DNA of 40,738 nucleotides from a virus (lineage: Duplodnaviria; Heunggongvirae; Uroviricota; Caudoviricetes). Position numbers and translations under genes: made by a program. Positions 1-35,243 of the stretch are shown piece after piece. The stretch lies in IMG/VR virus record IMGVR_UViG_640753023_000013; one strand, written 5' to 3'. Under the pieces are notes generated by a model that was not told the origin of the DNA, made no database searches, and was given only the letters and a program-made list of their open reading frames with translations. Each line of letters starts with the position of its first letter. Within the stretch, counting starts at the first letter, position 1.

Positions 1-516
1 ATGAAATTTAAAAAATGTCTTCTGCCTGTGGCAATGTTAGCGTCATTCACTCTGGCAGGATGCCAGTCAAATGCTGATGATCATGCCGCCGATGTTTATC
101 AAACCGATCAACTGAATACCAAACAAGAAACTAAAACCGTTAATATTATTTCCATTCTTCCCGCAAAAGTTGCCGTAGACAACGCCCAAAATAAACGGAA
201 CGCACAAGCCTTCGGCGCGCTTATTGGCGCTGTCGCTGGCGGTGTTATCGGCCACAACGTCGGGTCTGGCAGCAATTCCGGAACGACGGCAGGTGCAGTT
301 GGCGGCGGAGCTGTAGGCGCGGCAGCGGGTTCTATGGTGAATGATAAAACCTTAGTGGAAGGTGTTTCTTTAACATATAAGGAAGGCACCAAAGTGTATA
401 CCTCCACCCAGGTGGGTAAAGAGTGCCAGTTTACGACAGGTTTAGCCGTTGTTATTACCACGACGTATAACGAAACGCGTATTCAGCCAAATACCAAATG
501 TCCTGAAAAGAGCTAA
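1..516 (+). CDS. Outer-membrane lipoprotein with glycine-zipper segment (SlyB/YcfJ-like); host flank or terminal cargo
   Basis: Signal peptide with lipobox LAGC; Gly/Ala-rich segment GALIGAVAGGVIGHNVG resembling E. coli YcfJ/SlyB glycine zipper. Confidence 0.6.
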   Translation: MKFKKCLLPVAMLASFTLAGCQSNADDHAADVYQTDQLNTKQETKTVNIISILPAKVAVDNAQNKRNAQAFGALIGAVAGGVIGHNVGSGSNSGTTAGAVGGGAVGAAAGSMVNDKTLVEGVSLTYKEGTKVYTSTQVGKECQFTTGLAVVITTTYNETRIQPNTKCPEKS

Positions 517-531
517 TAATCAGGAGGAGTC

Positions 532-1071
532 ATGAAGAAAGTTTTTCTTTGCGCCATCTTAGCCTCCTTAAGCTATCCGGCTATCGCCTCATCATTGCAG
601 GATCAACTCTCGGCTGTCGCAGAAGCGGAACAGCAAGGTAAAAATGAAGAGCAAAGGCAGCATGACGAATGGGTCGCGGAGCGCAACAGGGAAATCCAGC
701 AAGAGAAGCAACGTCGCGCAAACGCCCAGGCCGCGGCTAATAAAAGAGCGGCAACGGCAGCAGCGAATAAGAAAGCTCGTCAGGATAAACTGGACGCCGA
801 AGCCACTGCGGACAAAAAACGCGATCAAAGTTATGAAGATGAGCTACGTAGCTTAGAGATTCAGAAACAAAAACTGGCGCTGGCGAAAGAAGAAGCCCGC
901 GTCAAGCGCGAAAACGAATTTATCGATCAGGAACTGAAGCACAAAGCTGCGCAAACCGATGTGGTGCAATCTGAAGCTGACGCAAACAGAAATATGACTG
1001 AAGGCGGTCGCGATCTGATGAAAAGCGTGGGTAAAGCAGAAGAGAATAAATCAGATAGCTGGTTTAACTAA
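532..1071 (+). CDS. Secreted, highly charged coiled-coil protein of unknown function
   Basis: N-terminal signal peptide, Lys/Glu/Ala-rich body, RBS AGGAGG upstream; no family recognised. Confidence 0.5.
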   Translation: MKKVFLCAILASLSYPAIASSLQDQLSAVAEAEQQGKNEEQRQHDEWVAERNREIQQEKQRRANAQAAANKRAATAAANKKARQDKLDAEATADKKRDQSYEDELRSLEIQKQKLALAKEEARVKRENEFIDQELKHKAAQTDVVQSEADANRNMTEGGRDLMKSVGKAEENKSDSWFN

Positions 1072-1109
1072 ACGATGTTAGTAACTTCAAACCTATAATT
1101 CTTTAGGAT

Positions 1110-1141
1110 AAAAAAACCCTCTGTAGTAACAGAGGGTTTTG
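1110..1141. terminator. Rho-independent terminator, bidirectional (A-run, hairpin, T-run)
   Basis: aaaaaa-CCCTCTG-tagtaa-CAGAGGG-tttt between the convergent + gene and the minus-strand lysis genes. Confidence 0.6.
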
Positions 1142-1266
1142 TTCATTCATAGTGCAGGGTCAAATCATTCCCACTCAATTATTTACGGATACCATAAACA
1201 ATTGATTGATAACAACTTTCTGCAACATGATTTTCACCGTACCGTTTTATATACCGTCGCCGGAAA

Positions 1267-3079: not shown

Positions 3080-3360
3080 ACTTTCTCCTGTTTACTATCT
3101 ATAAGCCAGTCAATTATTGATGACTAAACCCGCATAGTAAACCATATATGAATCATTATTGTTCCGTATCATATATCTCAATAAAAGTACTAATGATTTT
3201 ACAGAACGAGCCAGCAGAGTGGGGGCAGTTGTACAGGAACCATAGACTTAATTTTGTATTTAATAATGCTATGGTGTAATAAACCTGAACATGTATTTAA
3301 AATACGTACTGATTCATGATAGAATTCAAAGATAACTTTTCACAAACTCCGTTTTTGATA

Positions 3361-6505: not shown

Positions 6506-6609
6506 GTTAAATCTCCAGATAGTCGCAGCACCCGTTGCGCCGCATATCTGGTTATTCTATTACCTGGAAAACCACATATGGATAGAAAGGCTGTAAATAC
6601 GAATAGATA

Positions 6610-6624
6610 TTACCTTTCAGGTAA
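6610..6624. promoter_or_regulatory. Operator palindrome TTACC-TTTCA-GGTAA (site 1, perfect)
   Basis: Between tailspike start and the LexA-box gene. Confidence 0.6.
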
Positions 6625-6661: not shown

Positions 6662-6681
6662 TACTGTATAAATATACAGTT
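6662..6681. promoter_or_regulatory. LexA (SOS) box
   Basis: TACTGTATAAATATACAGTT, 18/20 match to consensus TACTGTATATATATACAGTA, 20 bp upstream of the ATG at 6701. Confidence 0.8.
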
Positions 6682-6700: not shown

Positions 6701-6958
6701 ATGCAGCAGTATCACTATCCACTGGAAGACGGATTTACCGAAAGGATTCACACGCCGGGAGGCGTCAGGTCACTGGTGGAGGGATCGCACTTGATGAAAT
6801 TACTCCGGGATCTCGATAAGGATGGATTTAATGTCGATGGCCCACTTGCCGAACTGACTGCACTGATTAACTACGTCACCAGCTCACAGATGTCTATGCG
6901 GGATCTGCAAACACATCTCGACTATTGTGCCGAACAATTACGAAAACAAACCAGATAA
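6701..6958 (+). CDS. Small antirepressor-related protein (homolog of the C-terminal domain of the downstream BRO-N protein)
   Basis: ATG with GGAGAAG RBS; residues 20-85 align with the C-terminus of the 7274-7969 product (LMxLL, DG, RDxQTH); ORF track start 6578 rejected. Confidence 0.6.
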   Translation: MQQYHYPLEDGFTERIHTPGGVRSLVEGSHLMKLLRDLDKDGFNVDGPLAELTALINYVTSSQMSMRDLQTHLDYCAEQLRKQTR

Positions 6959-7092
6959 GGTTTGCAATTACCAAGTGGAGTGCTTATATTTACCTTTGAG
7001 ATAAATTTACATCGCACTCCTCTTGTGCCATAGTAATCGGGCACTGGCAAAATCCAGTGCCGGGATTGGCGTCCCGGATTACTAAAAGGCGC

Positions 7093-7118
7093 ATTCACCG
7101 CGCAAGCGGTTTTTTTAT
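7093..7118 (+). terminator. Short hairpin plus T-run in the leader of the BRO-N gene
   Basis: CCGCgcaaGCGG followed by ttttttt. Confidence 0.4.
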
Positions 7119-7273
7119 GCGTATAGCACGGCCACATTCGTATTATGGTGGGCTGTGTGGGGGCACCGAAAGGTGCGCCGGGTCCTTTTAGCCGGTTACG
7201 CCAACCCTGCACAGTTCACCACCAACCGATTGGCGTCGGTAGTGGTGATTAACCAGACTAAAAGGTAACCACT

Positions 7274-7969
7274 ATGACAGCTACAAAAAGCACGTCCATT
7301 TTTTCTTTCGAATCCCAAGCCGATATACGGGTAATCGTCATTAATGGTGAGCCATGGTTTATCGCTTCAGATGTTTGTCGGGCTATAGGCATAGCAAACC
7401 ATCGAGATGCTGTTCGAAAACTTGATGATGATGAGAAGGGCGTCGCTTCAACCGACACCCCTGGCGGTGAGCAAGAATCGATCATCATCTCCGAGTCAGG
7501 CCTCTACACACTGATCCTCCGCTGCCGCGACGCAGTGACACCAGGCACTATCCCCTACCGCTTTCGTAAATGGGTTACAGGTGAGGTTCTTCCTCAGATC
7601 CGCCGCACCGGAAGCTACATTAAAAACTCGCTCCCGCAGGAAGAACGCATAAAGATGGTTGCCGACCAGGTAGCCAACGCCACGGCGTCAGCAGTAATGC
7701 AGGCGATGAAGATAGAGAACAAAACCTACAGCGCCCCGCTGAAGCCCGGCTACCGCAGCCTGATTCACTCGCCGTCTGGTGTTCTCGGCCTGACGGAAAA
7801 CTCACTGCTGATGAATCTGCTGAACCAGTTACAGGAAGACGGGCACGACGTATCGGGCGCGGCGGCGGAGGTGACCACCATGTTCTGCTACATCGTCGGT
7901 GTGAGTAAATGCCTGCGTGATATCCAGACCCACGCGGAATACATCAACGACAAGGCAGGGTTCTTCTGA
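7274..7969 (+). CDS. BRO-N domain antirepressor-type protein
   Basis: N-terminal Bro-N signature (IRVIVINGEPWFIASDVCRAIG, DDDEKG); C-terminal domain shared with the 6701 gene. Confidence 0.8.
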   Translation: MTATKSTSIFSFESQADIRVIVINGEPWFIASDVCRAIGIANHRDAVRKLDDDEKGVASTDTPGGEQESIIISESGLYTLILRCRDAVTPGTIPYRFRKWVTGEVLPQIRRTGSYIKNSLPQEERIKMVADQVANATASAVMQAMKIENKTYSAPLKPGYRSLIHSPSGVLGLTENSLLMNLLNQLQEDGHDVSGAAAEVTTMFCYIVGVSKCLRDIQTHAEYINDKAGFF

Positions 7970-8041: not shown

Positions 8042-8056
8042 TTACCTCAAGGGTAA
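8042..8056. promoter_or_regulatory. Operator palindrome TTACC-TCAAG-GGTAA (site 2, perfect), overlapping a candidate promoter (TTGCAG-N17-TACTAT)
   Basis: 60 bp upstream of the moron gene at 8116. Confidence 0.55.
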
Positions 8057-8115: not shown

Positions 8116-8748
8116 ATGAGAACAAATACAACAAGAAAAGCGATGCCATACATTATCCCAGAAGCAGATTTCGATAGAAAACTGAACATGTCTGAGAAGA
8201 ACACTAGTCACACCGAAAGCTACTTAGCGAAAGGTGTGGTTGATTTCGTTCTTCCGGGATTCACAACACCTTATGGTTATCGCCTTGTAAAATCTTGTAA
8301 TGGCGATCATTACAGAATGATTACTACCAGCGATACTCCAGAAACGGTGTATGCGGTTAAGTTAATCTTTCGGGAAGATATCGTCGAAGCCAAAAGAACA
8401 TGTACGCAGATCATGGTATGGCGTACGCCTAATGTTATTCATGACCGTGCTGTTCATGGTTTGCCTCAGATTTTTTTTCAGTTCTTCCTAGAGCAATATG
8501 CGATCGTTGTATCTGATGAGCAACAAACAATCGATGGGAGAAGATTCTGGGAAAGAATGATTTCTTGGGCTATAAACACCCCAGGATATAATGTATACGT
8601 TTCAGATGGCTCTGAAGAAGATAGACCTCTTAGCTTCATGACATCATGGGATGATTTCTATAGCCAGTGGGCTGATTTCTGTTGGGGCAGTGATAAAGAT
8701 GTGCATACCCACAGACTACTGGTTATAAGCAAAGATAAACTGCATTAA
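8116..8748 (+). CDS. Hypothetical protein, AT-rich moron with own terminator; no recognisable domain
   Basis: 210 aa, GGGAGG RBS, AT-rich composition unlike neighbours. Confidence 0.65.
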   Translation: MRTNTTRKAMPYIIPEADFDRKLNMSEKNTSHTESYLAKGVVDFVLPGFTTPYGYRLVKSCNGDHYRMITTSDTPETVYAVKLIFREDIVEAKRTCTQIMVWRTPNVIHDRAVHGLPQIFFQFFLEQYAIVVSDEQQTIDGRRFWERMISWAINTPGYNVYVSDGSEEDRPLSFMTSWDDFYSQWADFCWGSDKDVHTHRLLVISKDKLH

Positions 8749-25715: not shown

Positions 25716-25730
25716 TTACCTTTCAGGTAG
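25716..25730. promoter_or_regulatory. Operator palindrome TTACC-TTTCA-GGTAg (site 3, one mismatch), next to a TTGACA -35-like hexamer at 25694-25699
   Basis: Same core and flank as site 1. Confidence 0.5.
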
Positions 25731-26052: not shown

Positions 26053-26129
26053 GTGGCATTAGCTCAGTTGGACAGAGCAACCGCCTTCTAAGCGGTTGGT
26101 CGCGGGTTCGAATCCTGCATGCCACGCCA
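26053..26129 (+). tRNA. tRNA-Arg (anticodon TCT, reads AGA), phage-encoded
   Basis: Cloverleaf: acceptor GTGGCAT/ATGCCAC, anticodon stem ACCGC/GCGGT with loop CTTCTAA, T-loop GGTTCGAATCC, genomic CCA; differs from E. coli argU in acceptor and anticodon stems. Confidence 0.9.
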
Positions 26130-28274: not shown

Positions 28275-28867
28275 TGATTACCATCCTGACGTTCTTTGAG
28301 TCGCTTCCTGGCTGCTGCTATGCGATCAGCAATTGTCACTTTCACATTAACATCCAGGCGTTCTTTGAATGCGTTGACGTCGACGTGCTTACCAATCAGT
28401 TCGAGGTTCTTCACCTTGTCAGGCCATTTAATTTTTTTGAGGATTGTCTCTATCGAATCCTCGTTCATGTTCATGATGGTCGATGACAGATCAAAGCCAC
28501 TAAGCGTAGTGCGCCAGATTTTCGGCCACTCGCGGATTGGCTTAAGGCTCCCATCGTCGTTGAGGATGTCGATCACGTCCATCTGGTCGATCTCCACCAG
28601 GCGCATGAGAACGTAATCAGCACTGACGCGCATTCGTTTGTTGCGCTCCTCCATCAACTCGGCAATCCGTTTTTGAATGCGTTCATCGCGCATCATGACA
28701 CTGGCTTTAACTGCCGCTGTATTTGGGGAGAATCCTGCGTTAATCGCTGCCTGAGTCTGGTTTTCAGGCGTTTTGATGTATGACTGGCAATAAGCCTCCT
28801 GCATTGCTGTGAGCGGCTTAAATTGCGTTGATTTGCGTTTATAGGTTTTAGGTTCAGCAGGCATCAT
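28271..28867 (-). CDS. Terminase small subunit (start revised from the TTG at 28945)
   Basis: ATG at 28867/28864 with GGTGG RBS; region 28868-28945 holds an operator palindrome and a terminator. Confidence 0.55.
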   Translation of the reverse strand: MMPAEPKTYKRKSTQFKPLTAMQEAYCQSYIKTPENQTQAAINAGFSPNTAAVKASVMMRDERIQKRIAELMEERNKRMRVSADYVLMRLVEIDQMDVIDILNDDGSLKPIREWPKIWRTTLSGFDLSSTIMNMNEDSIETILKKIKWPDKVKNLELIGKHVDVNAFKERLDVNVKVTIADRIAAARKRLKERQDGNQ

Positions 28868-28884
28868 AACCACCATGGTAATAG

Positions 28885-28899
28885 TTACCGTTGTGGTAA
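28885..28899. promoter_or_regulatory. Operator palindrome TTACC-GTTGT-GGTAA (site 4, perfect), 18 nt upstream of the terminase small start
   Basis: Perfect half-sites. Confidence 0.55.
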
Positions 28900-31585: not shown

Positions 31586-31930
31586 TCAGAACTCTTCGAT
31601 GTTCCAGCCACCACCTGCTTTCTTTGGTTTAACCGTTACCCCGATGATTCGGAACGGATACTGATCTGCGGCGACTTTGGTTTTCACCCTGGCGTCGTCG
31701 GTCCAGAAACCTTTCACTTCGTGCAGTTCCATCTCTCCGGTGGCGAGCATCACAGCGAAATCTGGCGTATAGAACGTGTTGTCAGCTAACCGCAGCTTGA
31801 TACCCTCGAATCGATACCAGGCGATTTCCCCTGCACGTTTACGCATCTCAAGGTGCTGGCAATACGCAGATTCTGTTTTGTTCATCTGGCCTGTTTTGAG
31901 TCGACCAAGAGCCTGTATCTGTTTTCTCAT
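31586..31930 (-). CDS. DUF1064-type phage protein
   Basis: 114 aa with the conserved YTPDF...ELHEVKG pattern as I recall it for this family. Confidence 0.55.
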   Translation of the reverse strand: MRKQIQALGRLKTGQMNKTESAYCQHLEMRKRAGEIAWYRFEGIKLRLADNTFYTPDFAVMLATGEMELHEVKGFWTDDARVKTKVAADQYPFRIIGVTVKPKKAGGGWNIEEF

Positions 31931-31933
31931 GAT

Positions 31934-31948
31934 TTACCTCTGAGGTAA
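31934..31948. promoter_or_regulatory. Operator palindrome TTACC-TCTGA-GGTAA (site 5, perfect), 4 nt from the DUF1064 start codon
   Basis: Perfect half-sites; overlaps the RBS. Confidence 0.55.
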
Positions 31949-31995
31949 TTAAAAACCACATAAGACACGAAATCAATAGAGTTTAGAATATTTTG

Positions 31996-32010
31996 TTACC
32001 CAACAGGTAA
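31996..32010. promoter_or_regulatory. Operator palindrome TTACC-CAACA-GGTAA (site 6, perfect)
   Basis: Perfect half-sites, 48 bp from site 5. Confidence 0.55.
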
Positions 32011-32824: not shown

Positions 32825-33626
32825 CCCACACCCCTTCTATCCAGTCAGTGTTATTCCAGTCAAGCTCATCGCTTTTCCCGGCATTTTTTGATTTTCCCCT
32901 GATATGATTTACGTGCCTGGCGAATTTTTGTTCCCACTGAACCTGCGTGAACACTTTGCCCTCAGCCATCCAGTAATCCCGGAATGCAGCAAGTTCAGCA
33001 GGTGTAAATTCCGGTTCCGGCAGGGCCGTTCCCCACAGCGCAGCACGCCGCCGAAAATCTGGCGACGGTAGCCAGCCATCTGTCATCGGAAATTTCCCGA
33101 TGGGTTCACTCAGGCCATCCAGAAATTCAGGTTCTGCCACCTGCAACGGCGTACTGTTCGCTTCACTGGTCGGAGCACCCTCGCGCACGTGCGCTATGTG
33201 TGGGGTTTTATATATATCTTCCTCTTCCTCTTCCTCTGGTAACTCCTTTTGTAACGCTGTTGGCGTTACTTTTTGCGTTACTCGTTTTCGATGCTCTGCC
33301 ACTCTTCTATTCGTAAGTGCACGTTTTTTCGATGATTCTCCATTATGTCGCTCAAAGTTTGGAAGAATTAGTTTGCCGTCATGATAAGCAAGCCATCCGA
33401 CGCTAATGAGGGCGTCAGCAAATCCTGTAATAAAAGCGAGTCTATCAAGTACTCCTTTTGTAACGCTGCCAGCGTTACCGTCTATTGTTTGCTGGTCAGC
33501 CCATGCCCATATACGAACCAGCTTTCCAAGAACAGCATCTGGATCAATACCCAGAATTTCTGCTATCTGAAAAATTTCAGGTTTATCAGGAGTGATAACT
33601 TCAACCTTAATCCAGCTGCTTGCCAT
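32796..33626 (-). CDS. Replication initiator (O-like) with DnaT-like C-terminal domain
   Basis: C-terminal segment resembling the DnaT-type domain found in phage initiators; acidic EEEEEED linker; internal iteron-like repeats; ATG at 33626. Confidence 0.6.
   Translation of the reverse strand: MASSWIKVEVITPDKPEIFQIAEILGIDPDAVLGKLVRIWAWADQQTIDGNAGSVTKGVLDRLAFITGFADALISVGWLAYHDGKLILPNFERHNGESSKKRALTNRRVAEHRKRVTQKVTPTALQKELPEEEEEEDIYKTPHIAHVREGAPTSEANSTPLQVAEPEFLDGLSEPIGKFPMTDGWLPSPDFRRRAALWGTALPEPEFTPAELAAFRDYWMAEGKVFTQVQWEQKFARHVNHIRGKSKNAGKSDELDWNNTDWIEGVWDEINSRTSQ
33251..33281. repeat. Iteron-like cluster GTAACGC-N5-GCGTTAC plus extra GCGTTAC (candidate ori), copy 1
   Basis: Inverted repeat; an 18-nt segment is repeated at 33451-33468 in a different reading frame. 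Confidence 0.45.
33460..33478. repeat. Iteron-like inverted repeat GTAACGC-N5-GCGTTAC, copy 2
   Basis: 209 bp from copy 1. Confidence 0.45.
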
Positions 33627-33801
33627 AGGTTTCCCCTCTTGCACTCTTTAGTGCACAAGCAAATTCATTACGATGGCGGTTGGCGCTATTCATTGCACAT
33701 TCAACACATGTTCCGTTCAGAACATACCTTTCAGAGAGATGGCCGTGACGGCACCGCTTTCCTGTGAAATAGCGATTTAACCCGGCTTTTGCGGCCTCCA
33801 T
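33607..33801 (-). CDS. Small zinc-ribbon-like protein (CxH...CxxC)
   Basis: 64 aa from the ATG at 33801; weak RBS. Confidence 0.35.
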   Translation of the reverse strand: MEAAKAGLNRYFTGKRCRHGHLSERYVLNGTCVECAMNSANRHRNEFACALKSARGETYGKQLD

Positions 33802-33897
33802 TCTGGTTACTATCTTCAATTTTTCCGCCCCTTTTTGTTATTGATATTGGCTATTTTGCACAATTGGAAAATTTGATCAACCAGATTTGGTTTTTTA

Positions 33898-33912
33898 TTA
33901 CCTTTGAGGTAC
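33898..33912. promoter_or_regulatory. Operator palindrome TTACC-TTTGA-GGTAc (site 7, one mismatch)
   Basis: Between the cro-like terminator and the zinc-ribbon/O genes. Confidence 0.5.
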
Positions 33913-33920
33913 GAATAGAT

Positions 33921-33945
33921 ATGAAAAGACCGCCGGGTGGCGGTC
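33921..33945 (-). terminator. Rho-independent terminator after the cro-like gene
   Basis: GACCGCC-gggt-GGCGGTC with a U-run on the minus strand. Confidence 0.5.
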
Positions 33946-33967
33946 TACAGAGGGTTGTAGCTGGATA

Positions 33968-34198
33968 TCATGAGTAGAAGAAGTATGCCAGTTCTGCTTT
34001 TGAGCGCAGCCATTGTCTTGTTTTACAGGCTTTAAAAAGCCCATTCATCAATACCTTACCTGGCATTTTGCGCTTGCCTGTTAAGTGAGTCTGGATATAG
34101 TGACTCGTCGTTCCGGCTTCCTGTGCGAAGGCTTCACGCTCATCCGGAGTAAGTGCAAGCCAGTGCTTTTTGAAATCGAAATGTCCGTTATCGCTCAT
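33968..34198 (-). CDS. Cro-like small DNA-binding protein
   Basis: 76 aa, divergent from the repressor gene. Confidence 0.55.
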   Translation of the reverse strand: MSDNGHFDFKKHWLALTPDEREAFAQEAGTTSHYIQTHLTGKRKMPGKVLMNGLFKACKTRQWLRSKAELAYFFYS

Positions 34199-34234
34199 AG
34201 CTATTGCCTGATATTTATTTCAGATAATAAATAT

Positions 34235-34297
34235 TCACCCATAAGGTAACAAAAATCAAGGATAGTTACCTATGAGGTGCATTTACCTGTTGGGTAA
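34235..34297. promoter_or_regulatory. Immunity operator cluster: three palindrome sites (34235-34249, one mismatch; 34266-34280, two mismatches; 34283-34297, perfect)
   Basis: Three copies of TTACC-N5-GGTAA in the 154-bp repressor/cro intergenic region. Confidence 0.65.
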
Positions 34298-34352
34298 TAT
34301 TGCTTTAAATTGAATCATCTACTGATTCATATATGAGGCGATTTTCCAGAAA

Positions 34353-34937
34353 ATGAAAAGTATCCAGGACGTCCGCAGGCAAAATCTCAACGACTTGATC
34401 GACCGTGAATTCAATGGTGTTCAGACGCGGATGGCAGAAAAACTTGGAACTCAGGCAAATCTGGTAAACCGCTGGGCTCTTGGCAAGAAGGTTATCGGCG
34501 ACCAGGTTGCGCGAAAAATTGAAGCTGCCGCCAATAAACCACGTAACTGGCTTGATATCGATCGCTCGCTTTCTCAGGAAGGTTTTCAGCCTGTCGGCCC
34601 GAGCGATATAGGTCAGCTGGCGGCTCACAACCTGGAACGCTGGATGAGCGAAAGCCGCGACCTTTCAACACAGGGAAAACTTCACCGCGCATCCGGCGTC
34701 GCCCAGGTGACAATCAGCCGCCTGTTAAACAATGAGGTCAGCGTTTCCATTTCCACCCTGGAGAATGTTGCATCCGCATTCGGGCGTCACGGATATGAAC
34801 TACTGATTCACCCGCACGACCCTGCGACTATCAACTATGACCGCTCACGCTACGCATTGTTACCCGAAACCGAGAAAGCAAAGATCGAAAGTTACATTGA
34901 ATTTGTCATCAACCAGAACGAAAAAAGCAAACAATAA
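34353..34937 (+). CDS. Prophage repressor with two HTH (XRE-type) domains and no S24 peptidase domain
   Basis: Two HTH-like segments (QTRMAEKLGTQANLVNRW and LHRASGVAQVTISRLL); no Ala-Gly/Ser-Lys self-cleavage module. Confidence 0.7.
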   Translation: MKSIQDVRRQNLNDLIDREFNGVQTRMAEKLGTQANLVNRWALGKKVIGDQVARKIEAAANKPRNWLDIDRSLSQEGFQPVGPSDIGQLAAHNLERWMSESRDLSTQGKLHRASGVAQVTISRLLNNEVSVSISTLENVASAFGRHGYELLIHPHDPATINYDRSRYALLPETEKAKIESYIEFVINQNEKSKQ

Positions 34938-34957
34938 AACTATATTTTTCAGTAAGT

Positions 34958-34982
34958 AAGCCGCCTCATGGCGGCTTTTTTA
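34958..34982 (+). terminator. Rho-independent terminator after the repressor gene
   Basis: AAGCCGCC-tcat-GGCGGCTT followed by ttttt. Confidence 0.75.
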
Positions 34983-34994
34983 TTGCCAGATAGA

Positions 34995-35009
34995 TTACCT
35001 TACGGGTAA
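34995..35009. promoter_or_regulatory. Operator palindrome TTACC-TTACG-GGTAA (site 11, perfect)
   Basis: 20 bp upstream of a TTGACA -35 hexamer. Confidence 0.6.
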
Positions 35010-35028
35010 TTTTTTTAACTCATATCTA

Positions 35029-35057
35029 TTGACACCAAACCAAATAAGCATAATTAT
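35029..35057 (+). promoter_or_regulatory. Candidate sigma70 early-left promoter (TTGACA, 16-17 bp spacer, TAATTA/AATTAT)
   Basis: Consensus -35; -10 candidates directly followed by operator site 12. Confidence 0.4.
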
Positions 35058-35071
35058 TACCTCAACGGTAA
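35057..35071. promoter_or_regulatory. Operator palindrome TTACC-TCAAC-GGTAA (site 12, perfect)
   Basis: Overlaps the -10/+1 region of the early-left promoter. Confidence 0.6.
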
Positions 35072-35090
35072 CAGACCGAGGTAACAAGTT

Positions 35091-35243
35091 ATGCAGTGGA
35101 AAATCATCAACGGTTGGTACTGCGTTACTGCATGCGGATTCATGAGCTGGAAGTTCCGCACCTTACAGGAAGGCATTAAGTGGGCTTTCGTCAGCAAAGA
35201 AGCTCGCGATGTAGCCAACGATAACGAGATATGGGAGGGCTGA
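35091..35243 (+). CDS. Small protein (50 aa), first gene of the early-left operon; not in the ORF track
   Basis: ATG with GAGG RBS; Trp/Cys-rich; stop overlaps the next start. Confidence 0.4.
   Translation: MQWKIINGWYCVTACGFMSWKFRTLQEGIKWAFVSKEARDVANDNEIWEG

What the first reader, a model, noticed from the sequence alone, without database searches (positions are those of the whole stretch)
34199..34937. Immunity switch with three spaced operators and a repressor that lacks a self-cleavage domain
The repressor/cro intergenic region carries three palindrome copies spaced 31 and 17 bp apart, like OR1-OR3. The 194-aa repressor has two HTH domains but no LexA-like S24 peptidase module, so RecA-stimulated autocleavage is not expected. 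Induction must therefore go through another route, which fits the LexA-controlled antirepressor locus.
Basis: partly seen in the sequence, partly recalled or inferred. Interest (0 to 1): 0.5.

Follow-up and report, generated by a model that had tools for sequence, protein, structure and literature searches.

The report
Known SPC32H-type repressor–antirepressor phage switch
This is the immunity switch of a common phiV10/epsilon15-like E. coli prophage, whose uncleavable repressor is most likely switched off by a small LexA-controlled antirepressor, a mechanism already solved in the related Salmonella phage SPC32H, so the finding is correct but ordinary.

Summary
The 154-bp gap between the divergent cro-like gene (33968-34198, -) and the 194-aa repressor gene (34353-34937, +) has three copies of the palindrome TTACC-N5-GGTAA at 34235, 34266 and 34283, which is 31 and 17 bp apart. 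The protein has an N-terminal HTH, a second HTH-like domain and a short C-terminal tail, with no S24 peptidase. None of its 86 homologues has one either.

The protein aligns end to end with the Rep repressor of Salmonella phage SPC32H (PDB 5D50_A, E 3.5e-42). An 85-aa gene at 6701-6958 is about 86% identical to SPC32H Ant (5D50_E). It sits behind a near-consensus LexA box at 6664-6679.

The window is a phiV10-type Uetakevirus prophage. Phage vB_EcoP_ZX5 has 99% identical proteins, and its repressor was shown to shut off lytic transcription.

Three nuances apply:
- In SPC32H the second "HTH" is a dimerisation domain, not a DNA binder.
- The three operators belong to a set of at least 13 sites at about nine loci.
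- A second antirepressor (Bro-N with an Ant-like domain), preceded by isrK and C4 RNAs, follows ant.

Cleavage resistance and Ant-Rep binding are inferred, not tested, for this phage type.

The parts
34353..34937 (+). rep: 194-aa lysogeny repressor. By alignment to SPC32H Rep: DNA-binding HTH about 1-72, linker 73-88, HTH-like dimerisation domain about 89-152, C-terminal tetramerisation/Ant-binding tail about 153-190.
   Evidence: 5D50_A E 3.5e-42 over residues 1-190. Pfam shows HTH only. The domain scheme comes from PMC9986798. Identity to SPC32H Rep per domain is 53/34/47%. The AlphaFold model has two helical domains, a disordered linker and a C-terminal helix. The protein is 99.5% identical to the vB_EcoP_ZX5 repressor, whose overexpression cut holin and endolysin mRNA by more than 99.9%.
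34235..34249 (.). Operator nearest cro (OR1-like), TCACCCATAAGGTAA. It lies in the spacer of the candidate rightward promoter.
34266..34280 (.). Middle operator (OR2-like), TTACCTATGAGGTGC. It is the weakest copy.
   Evidence: Its position is conserved in six phages.
34283..34297 (.). Operator nearest rep (OR3-like), the perfect palindrome TTACCTGTTGGGTAA. It overlaps the candidate rep promoter.
34224..34259 (-). Candidate early-right promoter toward cro. Either TTGATT (34259-34254)-18-AATATT (34235-34230), or TTGTTA-17-TATTAT (34252-34224).
   Evidence: Consensus scan. TTGATTTTT is invariant in six phages. No transcript data, so this is inferred.
34282..34310 (+). Candidate rep maintenance promoter, TTTACC-17-TTAAAT.
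   Evidence: Read from the sequence. The same hexamers and spacing are present in SPC32H. Inferred only.
33968..34198 (-). 76-aa Cro-like regulator, first gene of the rightward operon.
   Evidence: phrog_35 'transcriptional repressor', E 5.6e-13. Divergent from rep.
33927..33946 (-). Terminator-like hairpin just after cro.
33898..33912 (.). Operator-like site (1 mismatch) just downstream of the cro terminator.
   Evidence: The equivalent site is in phiV10 at 33112.
34958..34977 (+). Terminator after rep.
34995..35009 (.). Upstream operator of the leftward early promoter (perfect).
   Evidence: It lies 62 bp from the next operator. The spacing is also 62 bp in phiV10, SPC32H, epsilon15 and Tyrion, and 63 bp in BUCT711.
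35029..35057 (+). Candidate PL-like promoter, TTGACA-17-AATTAT, driving the small ORFs, exonuclease, RecT and excisionase.
   Evidence: Best consensus match in the region, 10 of 12.
35057..35071 (.). Operator abutting the -10 of the PL-like promoter (perfect).
6701..6958 (+). ant: 85-aa antirepressor.
   Evidence: 5D50_E E 1.4e-46. It is 86% identical to SPC32H Ant.
6664..6679 (.). LexA box CTGTATAAATATACAG, 22 bp upstream of the ant start codon.
   Evidence: Conserved in five phages. The SPC32N mutation maps to the same box.
6610..6624 (.). Perfect Rep operator between the divergent tailspike and ant genes, 54 bp upstream of the LexA box.
   Evidence: The equivalent epsilon15 site is annotated as repressor-binding.
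6962..7004 (+). Promoter TTGCAA-17-TATATT with an abutting operator-like site, TTACCTTTGAGATAA (6990-7004).
   Evidence: The operator is perfect at this position in phiV10 and Tyrion.
7041..7116 (+). isrK-like small RNA.
   Evidence: Rfam RF01394, 77.9 bits against a cut-off of 50.
7141..7226 (+). C4-type antisense RNA.
   Evidence: Rfam RF01695, 77.7 bits against a cut-off of 45.
7274..7969 (+). Second antirepressor, 231 aa: a Bro-N domain plus a C-terminal Ant-like domain.
   Evidence: Pfam Bro-N E 2.2e-21. The C-terminus is 42% identical to Ant. phrog_130 'anti-repressor Ant'. It is 99% identical to ZX5 ORF4, whose overexpression lowered prophage titre from 1e9 to 1e6.
8042..8056 (.). Perfect operator abutting the candidate promoter TTGCAG-17-TACTAT, upstream of a 210-aa ORF of unknown function.
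25716..25730 (.). Operator-like site (1 mismatch) inside the late region.
   Evidence: Equivalent sites are in phiV10 at 3252, SPC32H at 3175 and epsilon15 at 2932, the last annotated as repressor-binding.
28867..28899 (.). Two operators 18 bp apart, immediately upstream of the small-terminase start codon.
   Evidence: Equivalent sites are in phiV10, SPC32H, epsilon15 and Tyrion.
31934..32010 (.). Two perfect operators 62 bp apart, flanking the candidate promoter TTGATT-17-TTTAAT, upstream of the DUF1064-family gene (31586-31930, -).
   Evidence: The same 62-bp pair is present in all five relatives.

Best explanation
The region is the lysis/lysogeny switch of a phiV10-type (Uetakevirus) prophage integrated next to guaA in E. 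coli.

Rep (194 aa) binds the 15-bp palindrome TTACC-N5-GGTAA through its N-terminal HTH. The three copies between rep and cro cover the rightward early promoter and the rep promoter. Further copies flank or abut the leftward early promoter, a promoter after the replication genes, the start of the packaging operon, and the promoters of the antirepressor locus.

Rep has no peptidase domain, so DNA damage does not cleave it. Instead, RecA-activated self-cleavage of host LexA frees the LexA box in front of ant. The 85-aa Ant is then made and binds the C-terminal part of Rep, taking the Rep tetramer apart and off the DNA. The early promoters fire as a result.

What is shown here: the sites, their statistics and conservation, the domain content, the homologies and the LexA box.

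What is shown elsewhere for close relatives: Ant-Rep binding and tetramer disassembly in SPC32H, and repression of lytic genes by the 99.5% identical ZX5 repressor.

What is inferred for this phage: that Ant binds this Rep, which is only 42% identical to SPC32H Rep; which promoter each operator controls; and that Rep is not cleaved.
For: **Repressor and antirepressor homology**
- Rep matches 5D50_A over its full length, E 3.5e-42.
- Ant matches 5D50_E, E 1.4e-46.
- Foldseek finds only 5D50 and 5D4Z at E<=0.001.

**No S24 domain**
- None in Pfam, PDB, the 86 homologues or the model.

**Operators**
- The palindrome is strongly enriched.
- It sits at the same loci with the same 62-bp and 17/30-31-bp spacings in phiV10, SPC32H, epsilon15, Tyrion and BUCT711.
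- The epsilon15 record annotates several of these sites as repressor-binding.
- The recognition-helix segment NLVNRW is invariant in the five Rep types.

**LexA control**
- The LexA box is perfect and positionally conserved.
- The SPC32N lytic variant carries ACAG->AAAG in that box.

**Literature**
- PMC7380047 describes antirepression after LexA cleavage.
- PMC9638917 reports that Rep binds DNA as a tetramer and that tetrameric Ant breaks it.
- PMC9986798 gives the DBD-MDD-CAD architecture, with CAD binding Ant.
- PMC9782041 reports the ZX5 overexpression data.
Against: - Rep here is only 42% identical to SPC32H Rep (47% in the Ant-binding tail) while Ant is 86% identical. Ant-Rep binding in this pairing is therefore an extrapolation.
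- I could not identify a convincing sigma-70 promoter for ant by eye.
- The only functional antirepressor test in this phage type used the Bro-N protein, not the small Ant.
- ZX5 lysogens release about 1e7 PFU/ml spontaneously, so non-SOS routes may matter.
- The primary SPC32H papers could not be read here.
Confidence: 0.85

Rival explanations
1. The main inducer is the second antirepressor (231 aa, Bro-N plus an Ant-like domain), controlled by the isrK/C4 RNAs and by Rep itself. The small LexA-controlled Ant is accessory or redundant.
For: The 231-aa protein is 99% identical to ZX5 ORF4. Overexpressing ORF4 lowered prophage counts 1000-fold and repressor mRNA by 75%. Its C-terminus is homologous to Ant. 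C4 and isrK are strong Rfam matches directly upstream.
Against: SPC32H and epsilon15 lack this module and still have the same ant/LexA-box arrangement. A single base change in the LexA box accompanies the lytic phenotype of SPC32N. Its promoter carries a Rep operator, so in a lysogen it should be silent until Rep is already inactivated.
Confidence: 0.1
2. Rep is inactivated as lambda CI is, by RecA-stimulated self-cleavage, through a cryptic cleavage site or module.
For: None found here. The only support is that this is the commonest route among lambdoid phages.
Against: There is no S24 domain by Pfam at E<=1, PDB sequence search at E<=10, the family-wide domain list or the structure model and fold search. 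The whole length is accounted for by the three SPC32H Rep domains.
Confidence: 0.02
3. The palindromes are mainly the targets of the 76-aa Cro-like protein or another regulator, not of the 194-aa protein.
For: The Cro-like protein falls in a repressor family (phrog_35). In lambda-type switches, Cro and the repressor share operators (my own knowledge).
Against: The sites occur at about nine loci including late and antirepressor promoters, which suits a global lysogeny repressor. The epsilon15 record labels them repressor/lysogeny. The Rep recognition helix is invariant wherever the palindrome core is invariant. Shared use by Cro is not excluded.
Confidence: 0.03

Closest known systems
Rep/Ant antirepression switch of Salmonella phage SPC32H (Kim & Ryu 2013; Kim et al. 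2016; PDB 5D4Z, 5D50)
   Same: Same genus and same gene order. Rep has the same length and three-domain layout. Ant is 86% identical. The LexA box is at the same place. The operator core TTACC-N5-GGTAA is the same, as are the three-site arrangement between rep and cro (17-18 plus 30-31 bp) and the 62-bp operator pairs.
   Different: Rep is only 42% identical. Operator spacers are less A/T-rich. This phage type has an extra isrK-C4-Bro-N antirepressor module that SPC32H lacks. Function is not tested for this Rep/Ant pair.
Escherichia phages phiV10 and vB_EcoP_ZX5
   Same: Essentially the same phage type. The immunity region is 97-98% identical in DNA and Rep is 99.5% identical. Ant and the Bro-N protein are 99% identical. 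ZX5 integrates at the guaA 3' end with the same att core that is found at 1163-1179.
   Different: Those papers annotate the small Ant as hypothetical. They tested only the repressor and the Bro-N protein, by overexpression. They do not describe the operators or the LexA box.
Lambda CI/Cro OR1-OR3 switch
   Same: Divergent repressor and cro genes with three operators between them. There is a second operator set at the leftward promoter.
   Different: The repressor has no S24 autocleavage domain. By homology it acts as a tetramer with a distinct dimerisation domain. Operator spacing is 31/17 bp. Induction is by sequestration, not cleavage.
LexA-controlled antirepressors of coliphage 186 (Tum) and Salmonella Gifsy/Fels-2 prophages
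   Same: The logic is the same: an uncleavable repressor and a small antirepressor gene under a LexA box (PMC7380047).
   Different: From my memory of the Kim & Ryu 2013 abstract, SPC32H Ant was described as structurally distinct from those antirepressors. No sequence similarity was tested here.
Phage P1 immI region (c4 antisense RNA - icd - ant)
   Same: A C4-family antisense RNA lies directly upstream of an antirepressor gene.
   Different: Only 47 nt separate C4 from the Bro-N gene, so there is no room for an icd-like ORF (coordinates). An isrK-like RNA precedes C4. The antirepressor carries an SPC32H-Ant-like domain. The promoter carries a Rep operator.

Membership tests
SPC32H-type Rep/Ant antirepression system | Repressor with an N-terminal HTH DNA-binding domain, a middle dimerisation domain and a C-terminal tetramerisation/Ant-binding domain | tested here: met
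   Full-length alignment to 5D50_A residues 2-197, E 3.5e-42. 5D4Z (residues 92-198) matches residues 89-190. The model and fold search agree. Domain definitions are from PMC9986798.
SPC32H-type Rep/Ant antirepression system | Repressor has no RecA-dependent autocleavage (S24) module | tested here: met
SPC32H-type Rep/Ant antirepression system | Small (about 86 aa) Ant protein homologous to 5D50 chain E | tested here: met
   E 1.4e-46. 86% identity.
SPC32H-type Rep/Ant antirepression system | ant preceded by a LexA-binding site | tested here: met
   CTGTATAAATATACAG at 6664-6679. It aligns with the SPC32H box, which is mutated in SPC32N. LexA binding itself was not tested.
SPC32H-type Rep/Ant antirepression system | Ant physically binds Rep and releases it from DNA; Rep stays intact during the SOS response | not testable with these tools
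   Needs protein biochemistry or in vivo blots. Known only for SPC32H.
Lambda-type CI repressor (HTH + S24) | C-terminal S24 peptidase domain with self-cleavage | tested here: not met
Lambda-type CI repressor (HTH + S24) | Three operators between divergent repressor and cro promoters | tested here: met
P1-type immI module (C4 RNA + antirepressor) | C4-family antisense RNA immediately upstream of an antirepressor gene | tested here: met
   RF01695, 77.7 bits. Bro-N/Ant-like gene at 7274-7969.
P1-type immI module (C4 RNA + antirepressor) | C4 pairs with the leader and blocks translation of the downstream gene | tested here: inconclusive
   The minimum-energy fold of 7141-7290 pairs the 5' end of C4 with the start-codon region of the Bro-N gene. 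This is one prediction without covariation support.

The most novel reading that the evidence does not exclude
The switch may be a two-stage, self-reinforcing antirepression circuit with three elements.

1. LexA-gated Ant first removes Rep.
2. Rep operators abut the -10 of the isrK-C4-Bro-N promoter and lie next to the ant promoter. Loss of Rep would therefore unlock a second antirepressor carrying an Ant-like domain, and this would commit the cell to lysis.
3. Ant is 82-86% conserved between the phiV10- and epsilon15-type phages, whose Reps are only 42-43% identical (65% Ant against 44% Rep for Klebsiella phage BUCT711), and all these Reps read the same TTACC/GGTAA core. Ant and Rep could therefore cross-act between Uetakevirus prophages of nominally different immunity types.
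Probability: 0.3. Interest if true: 0.45.

Novelty: already known. Interest (0 to 1): 0.2.

Why it matters
It matters little as a discovery. The mechanism was established genetically and structurally for SPC32H. The repressor sites are annotated in the epsilon15 record, and the same E. coli phage type has been partly characterised.

It is useful as annotation. This immunity region occurs in 539 of 5426 complete E. coli genomes, where the genes are labelled only 'helix-turn-helix domain-containing protein' and 'hypothetical protein'.

The operator map and the second RNA-guarded antirepressor give concrete, testable additions to the SPC32H model.

Tried and rejected
- **Papers not held.** The primary papers could not be read: Kim et al. 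2016, Kim & Ryu 2013 and Kropinski et al. 2007. I relied on papers that cite them and on the deposited sequences and structures.
- **Loci missing from the script machine.** L002, L004 and L005 never appeared there. I scanned them with the DNA search instead.
- **ant promoter.** I looked by eye for a sigma-70 promoter around the LexA box. No hexamer pair with sensible spacing is conserved in all five phages, so it is left open. The consensus scan listed none there either.
- **Other LexA-box matches.** Two other perfect CTGT-N8-ACAG matches (21703, 26245) have G+C-rich centres. With 16 matches against 14.3 expected overall, I treat them as chance.
- **S24 hypothesis.** Rejected.
- **Is the Ant-binding tail of Rep unusually conserved?** This would have explained why Ant is conserved. 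It is not: 47% identity, similar to the other domains.
- **Other libraries.** NCBIfam and Pfam gave nothing informative for Ant or for the 210-aa ORF, and NCBIfam gave nothing for the Bro-N protein.
Full report
**What the window is**

The immunity region (33900-35100) is 97-98% identical to Escherichia phages phiV10, HEMP4 and vB_EcoP_ZX5, and 77% identical to Enterobacter phage Tyrion. All belong to the genus Uetakevirus (epsilon15-like podoviruses).

The att core reported for ZX5 (ATTGAGTGGGAATGATT) occurs once, at 1163-1179. Bases 1-1162 are therefore host DNA, and the rest is a prophage that runs to the integrase gene at the window's end. The same immunity region is present in 539 of 5426 complete E. 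coli genomes.

**Checking the observation**

The 154-bp gap lies between a 76-aa gene on the minus strand (33968-34198) and a 194-aa gene on the plus strand (34353-34937). It holds three copies of TTACC-N5-GGTAA at 34235, 34266 and 34283, with 1, 2 and 0 mismatches. That is 31 and 17 bp apart, exactly as described.

This is far beyond chance:
- The window has 8 perfect copies against 0.04 expected, and 13 with at most one mismatch against about 1.2 expected.
- No shuffle reached the observed count of sites with at most 2 mismatches.
- By my placement against the ORF lists, all 13 sites lie between genes.
- The three sites align column for column in six phages, including ones whose repressor is only 42-44% identical.

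**The protein**

Pfam finds HTH_3 twice plus N-terminal Cro/YdaS-type hits, and nothing resembling Peptidase_S24 at E<=1. A PDB sequence search at E<=10 returns no LexA or CI peptidase. All 86 homologues found in a 5.8-billion-protein collection (52-98% identity among the near-full-length ones) carry HTH families only, and the 76 near-full-length ones are 190-235 aa, mostly 193-198 aa.

An AlphaFold model built on 24 of them (mean pLDDT 69) shows:
- two helical domains (residues 4-61 and 86-151);
- a low-confidence linker (62-83);
- a C-terminal helix (172-193);
- no beta-rich peptidase fold.

Its only significant structural matches are PDB 5D50 and 5D4Z.

**What it is**

The protein aligns from residue 1 to 190 with chain A of 5D50, the repressor (Rep) of Salmonella phage SPC32H, at E 3.5e-42.

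According to a paper that re-analysed that structure, Rep consists of three parts: an N-terminal DNA-binding domain, a middle dimerisation domain, and a C-terminal domain. The C-terminal domain makes tetramers and binds the antirepressor Ant (PMC9986798).

Another paper summarises the mechanism. Rep binds DNA as a tetramer, the dimer binds only weakly, and tetrameric Ant binds two Rep dimers and breaks the tetramer (PMC9638917).

Identity of this Rep to SPC32H Rep is 53% in the DNA-binding domain, 34% in the dimerisation domain and 47% in the tail. The segment NLVNRW, which lies in the HTH, is invariant in all five Rep types compared. This fits the finding that all of them use the same palindrome core.

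**The antirepressor locus**

An 85-aa ORF at 6701-6958 matches chain E of 5D50 (Ant) at E 1.4e-46 and is 86% identical to it. Twenty-two bases upstream of its start codon lies CTGTATAAATATACAG (6664-6679), a perfect CTGT-N8-ACAG LexA box with an A/T-rich centre. By my count it matches 18 of 20 positions of the E. coli consensus TACTGTATATATATACAGTA.

The box is at the same position in phiV10, SPC32H, epsilon15 and Tyrion. A near-consensus variant (ATGT-N8-ACAG) occupies that position in Klebsiella phage BUCT711.

I compared SPC32H with its constitutively lytic sibling SPC32N directly. In the aligned 161-bp ant-upstream stretch, the only difference is ACAG->AAAG in this box. That agrees with what I recall of the published account (Kim & Ryu 2013, not readable here). 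A review also states that in these phages LexA self-cleavage leads to an Ant that inhibits the repressor by protein contact (PMC7380047).

It is also already the textbook case for this phage group.

**Direct evidence for this phage type**

Phage vB_EcoP_ZX5 has a repressor 99.5% identical to this one. Overexpressing it reduced endolysin and holin transcripts by 99.99% and 99.97%, and abolished free phage (PMC9782041).

That study did not test the small Ant, which is annotated there as hypothetical. It tested 'ORF4', a Bro-N protein 99% identical to the 231-aa ORF at 7274-7969 here. Overexpressing ORF4 lowered prophage counts from 1e9 to 1e6.

**Anatomy beyond the given coordinates**

The three operators are part of a larger set. 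The palindrome also occurs at these loci:
- two sites 62 bp apart around the best promoter match in the region (TTGACA-17-AATTAT, 35029-35057), which heads the exonuclease/RecT/excisionase operon (34995 and 35057);
- two sites 62 bp apart after the replication genes (31934 and 31996);
- two sites 18 bp apart immediately before the small-terminase start codon (28867 and 28885);
- single sites at 25716 and 33898, and at 6610 between tailspike and ant;
- a site at 6990, at a promoter-like TTGCAA-17-TATATT;
- a site at 8042, after a candidate TTGCAG-17-TACTAT.

At five of these promoters the last T of the -10 hexamer is the first T of TTACC. Rep would therefore sit on the start site. This is my reading of the sequence, not a measurement.

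The same loci and the same 62-bp spacing recur in phiV10, SPC32H, epsilon15, Tyrion and BUCT711 (63 bp at the leftward promoter of BUCT711). The epsilon15 GenBank record already labels several of them 'repressor / lysogeny'.

Within the rep-cro gap:
- The cro-proximal operator lies in the spacer of the candidate rightward promoter. This is either TTGATT-18-AATATT, whose -35 is invariant in six phages, or TTGTTA-17-TATTAT.
- The perfect rep-proximal operator overlaps a candidate rep promoter, TTTACC-17-TTAAAT, which is also present in SPC32H.

Distances of 31 and 62 bp are close to whole numbers of helical turns, which would suit a tetramer holding two sites. That is inference.

**How it most likely works**

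In the lysogen, Rep tetramers occupy the palindromes and silence the early, packaging and antirepressor-locus promoters. LexA independently holds ant off.

DNA damage activates RecA and LexA cleaves itself. Ant is then made, binds the Rep tail and strips Rep from the DNA, and the early promoters fire.

Shown here are the sites, the domains, the homologies and the LexA box. Shown in relatives are Ant-Rep binding (SPC32H) and repression by Rep (ZX5). Inferred are Ant binding to this divergent Rep, absence of cleavage in vivo, and the assignment of promoters. I put 0.85 on this explanation.

**Rival explanations**

- Self-cleavage of Rep has no support.
- A leading role for the Bro-N antirepressor is possible, because it is the only one tested in this phage type. 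However, its promoter carries a Rep operator, and SPC32H and epsilon15 manage without it.
- The palindromes might be bound only by the Cro-like protein (phrog_35). This is unlikely given their genome-wide distribution, though shared use is probable.

**A second layer**

Between ant and the Bro-N gene, Rfam finds an isrK-like small RNA (7041-7116, 77.9 bits) and a C4 antisense RNA (7141-7226, 77.7 bits). The last 80 residues of the Bro-N protein are 42% identical to Ant.

This resembles the P1 immI arrangement (C4 RNA guarding an antirepressor), joined to an SPC32H-type Ant domain. It is placed behind a promoter with a Rep operator that is perfect in phiV10 and Tyrion and has one mismatch here. 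The module is present in phiV10, ZX5 and Tyrion but absent from SPC32H and epsilon15.

A plausible but untested reading is positive feedback: once Ant removes Rep, a second antirepressor is unlocked.

**Comparison and novelty**

The system passes every membership feature of the SPC32H Rep/Ant family that sequence can test. It fails the defining S24 feature of lambda-type repressors while sharing their three-operator layout. It works like the Tum (186) and Gifsy antirepression systems but uses a different antirepressor family.

Several things already exist in the literature or databases:
- the mechanism and the structures;
- the operator annotation in epsilon15;
- partial experiments on a 99% identical phage.

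I therefore rate it already known, with interest 0.2.

The residual novelty lies in three places: the operator map at the antirepressor promoters, the RNA-guarded second antirepressor, and the contrast between a conserved Ant (86%) and divergent Reps (42%) that read the same DNA core. Together these raise the possibility of cross-talk between immunity types. I give that reading a probability of 0.3.

Noticed in passing
window 6962-7969: A second antirepressor module follows ant. It consists of a promoter-like TTGCAA-17-TATATT with an abutting operator-like site, an isrK-like sRNA (7041-7116), a C4 antisense RNA (7141-7226) and a 231-aa Bro-N protein whose C-terminus is 42% identical to Ant. 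The protein is 99% identical to ZX5 ORF4, which reduced lysogeny when overexpressed.
   Followed up: partly
window 28867-28899, 31934-32010, 25716-25730, 8042-8056, 33898-33912: Repressor palindromes lie outside the immunity region: at the start of the packaging operon, after the replication genes (a pair 62 bp apart, the same spacing as at the leftward promoter), in the late region, before a 210-aa ORF, and after the cro terminator. All but the 8042 site (and, in SPC32H and epsilon15, the site after the cro terminator) have counterparts at the same loci in related phages.
   Followed up: partly
window 6598-6609 and 33910-33921: The 12-mer TACGAATAGATA occurs exactly twice in the window (0.12 expected). 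Each copy touches a repressor palindrome. Its meaning is unknown.
   Followed up: no
window 6701-6958 versus 34353-34937: Ant is 82-86% identical between the phiV10-type and epsilon15/SPC32H-type phages, while their repressors are only 42-43% identical. All use the same TTACC/GGTAA operator core and an invariant NLVNRW segment. Cross-reactivity between immunity types is possible.
   Followed up: partly
window 1-1179: This is host DNA (two ORFs of 171 and 179 aa, the first with a lipoprotein-like signal), followed by the att core ATTGAGTGGGAATGATT at 1163-1179. The same core is reported for ZX5 integration at the 3' end of guaA.
   Followed up: partly
window 26053-26129: A tRNA-Arg (anticodon TCT) gene lies inside the prophage. 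SPC32H has a tRNA-Arg, and ZX5 an unnamed tRNA.
   Followed up: no
window 8116-8748: A 210-aa ORF of unknown function (phrog_1349, no Pfam or NCBIfam hit) lies between the Bro-N gene and the structural genes. It sits behind a candidate promoter that abuts a perfect repressor palindrome.
   Followed up: no
window 33607-33819: A 70-aa cysteine-rich ORF (phrog_1081, unknown function) is the next gene after cro and its terminator. It occupies the position where lambda has cII.
   Followed up: no
L003 versus L007 (SPC32H and SPC32N, ant upstream): Direct comparison shows a single C->A change turning the LexA box ACAG into AAAG in the constitutively lytic SPC32N.
   Followed up: yes
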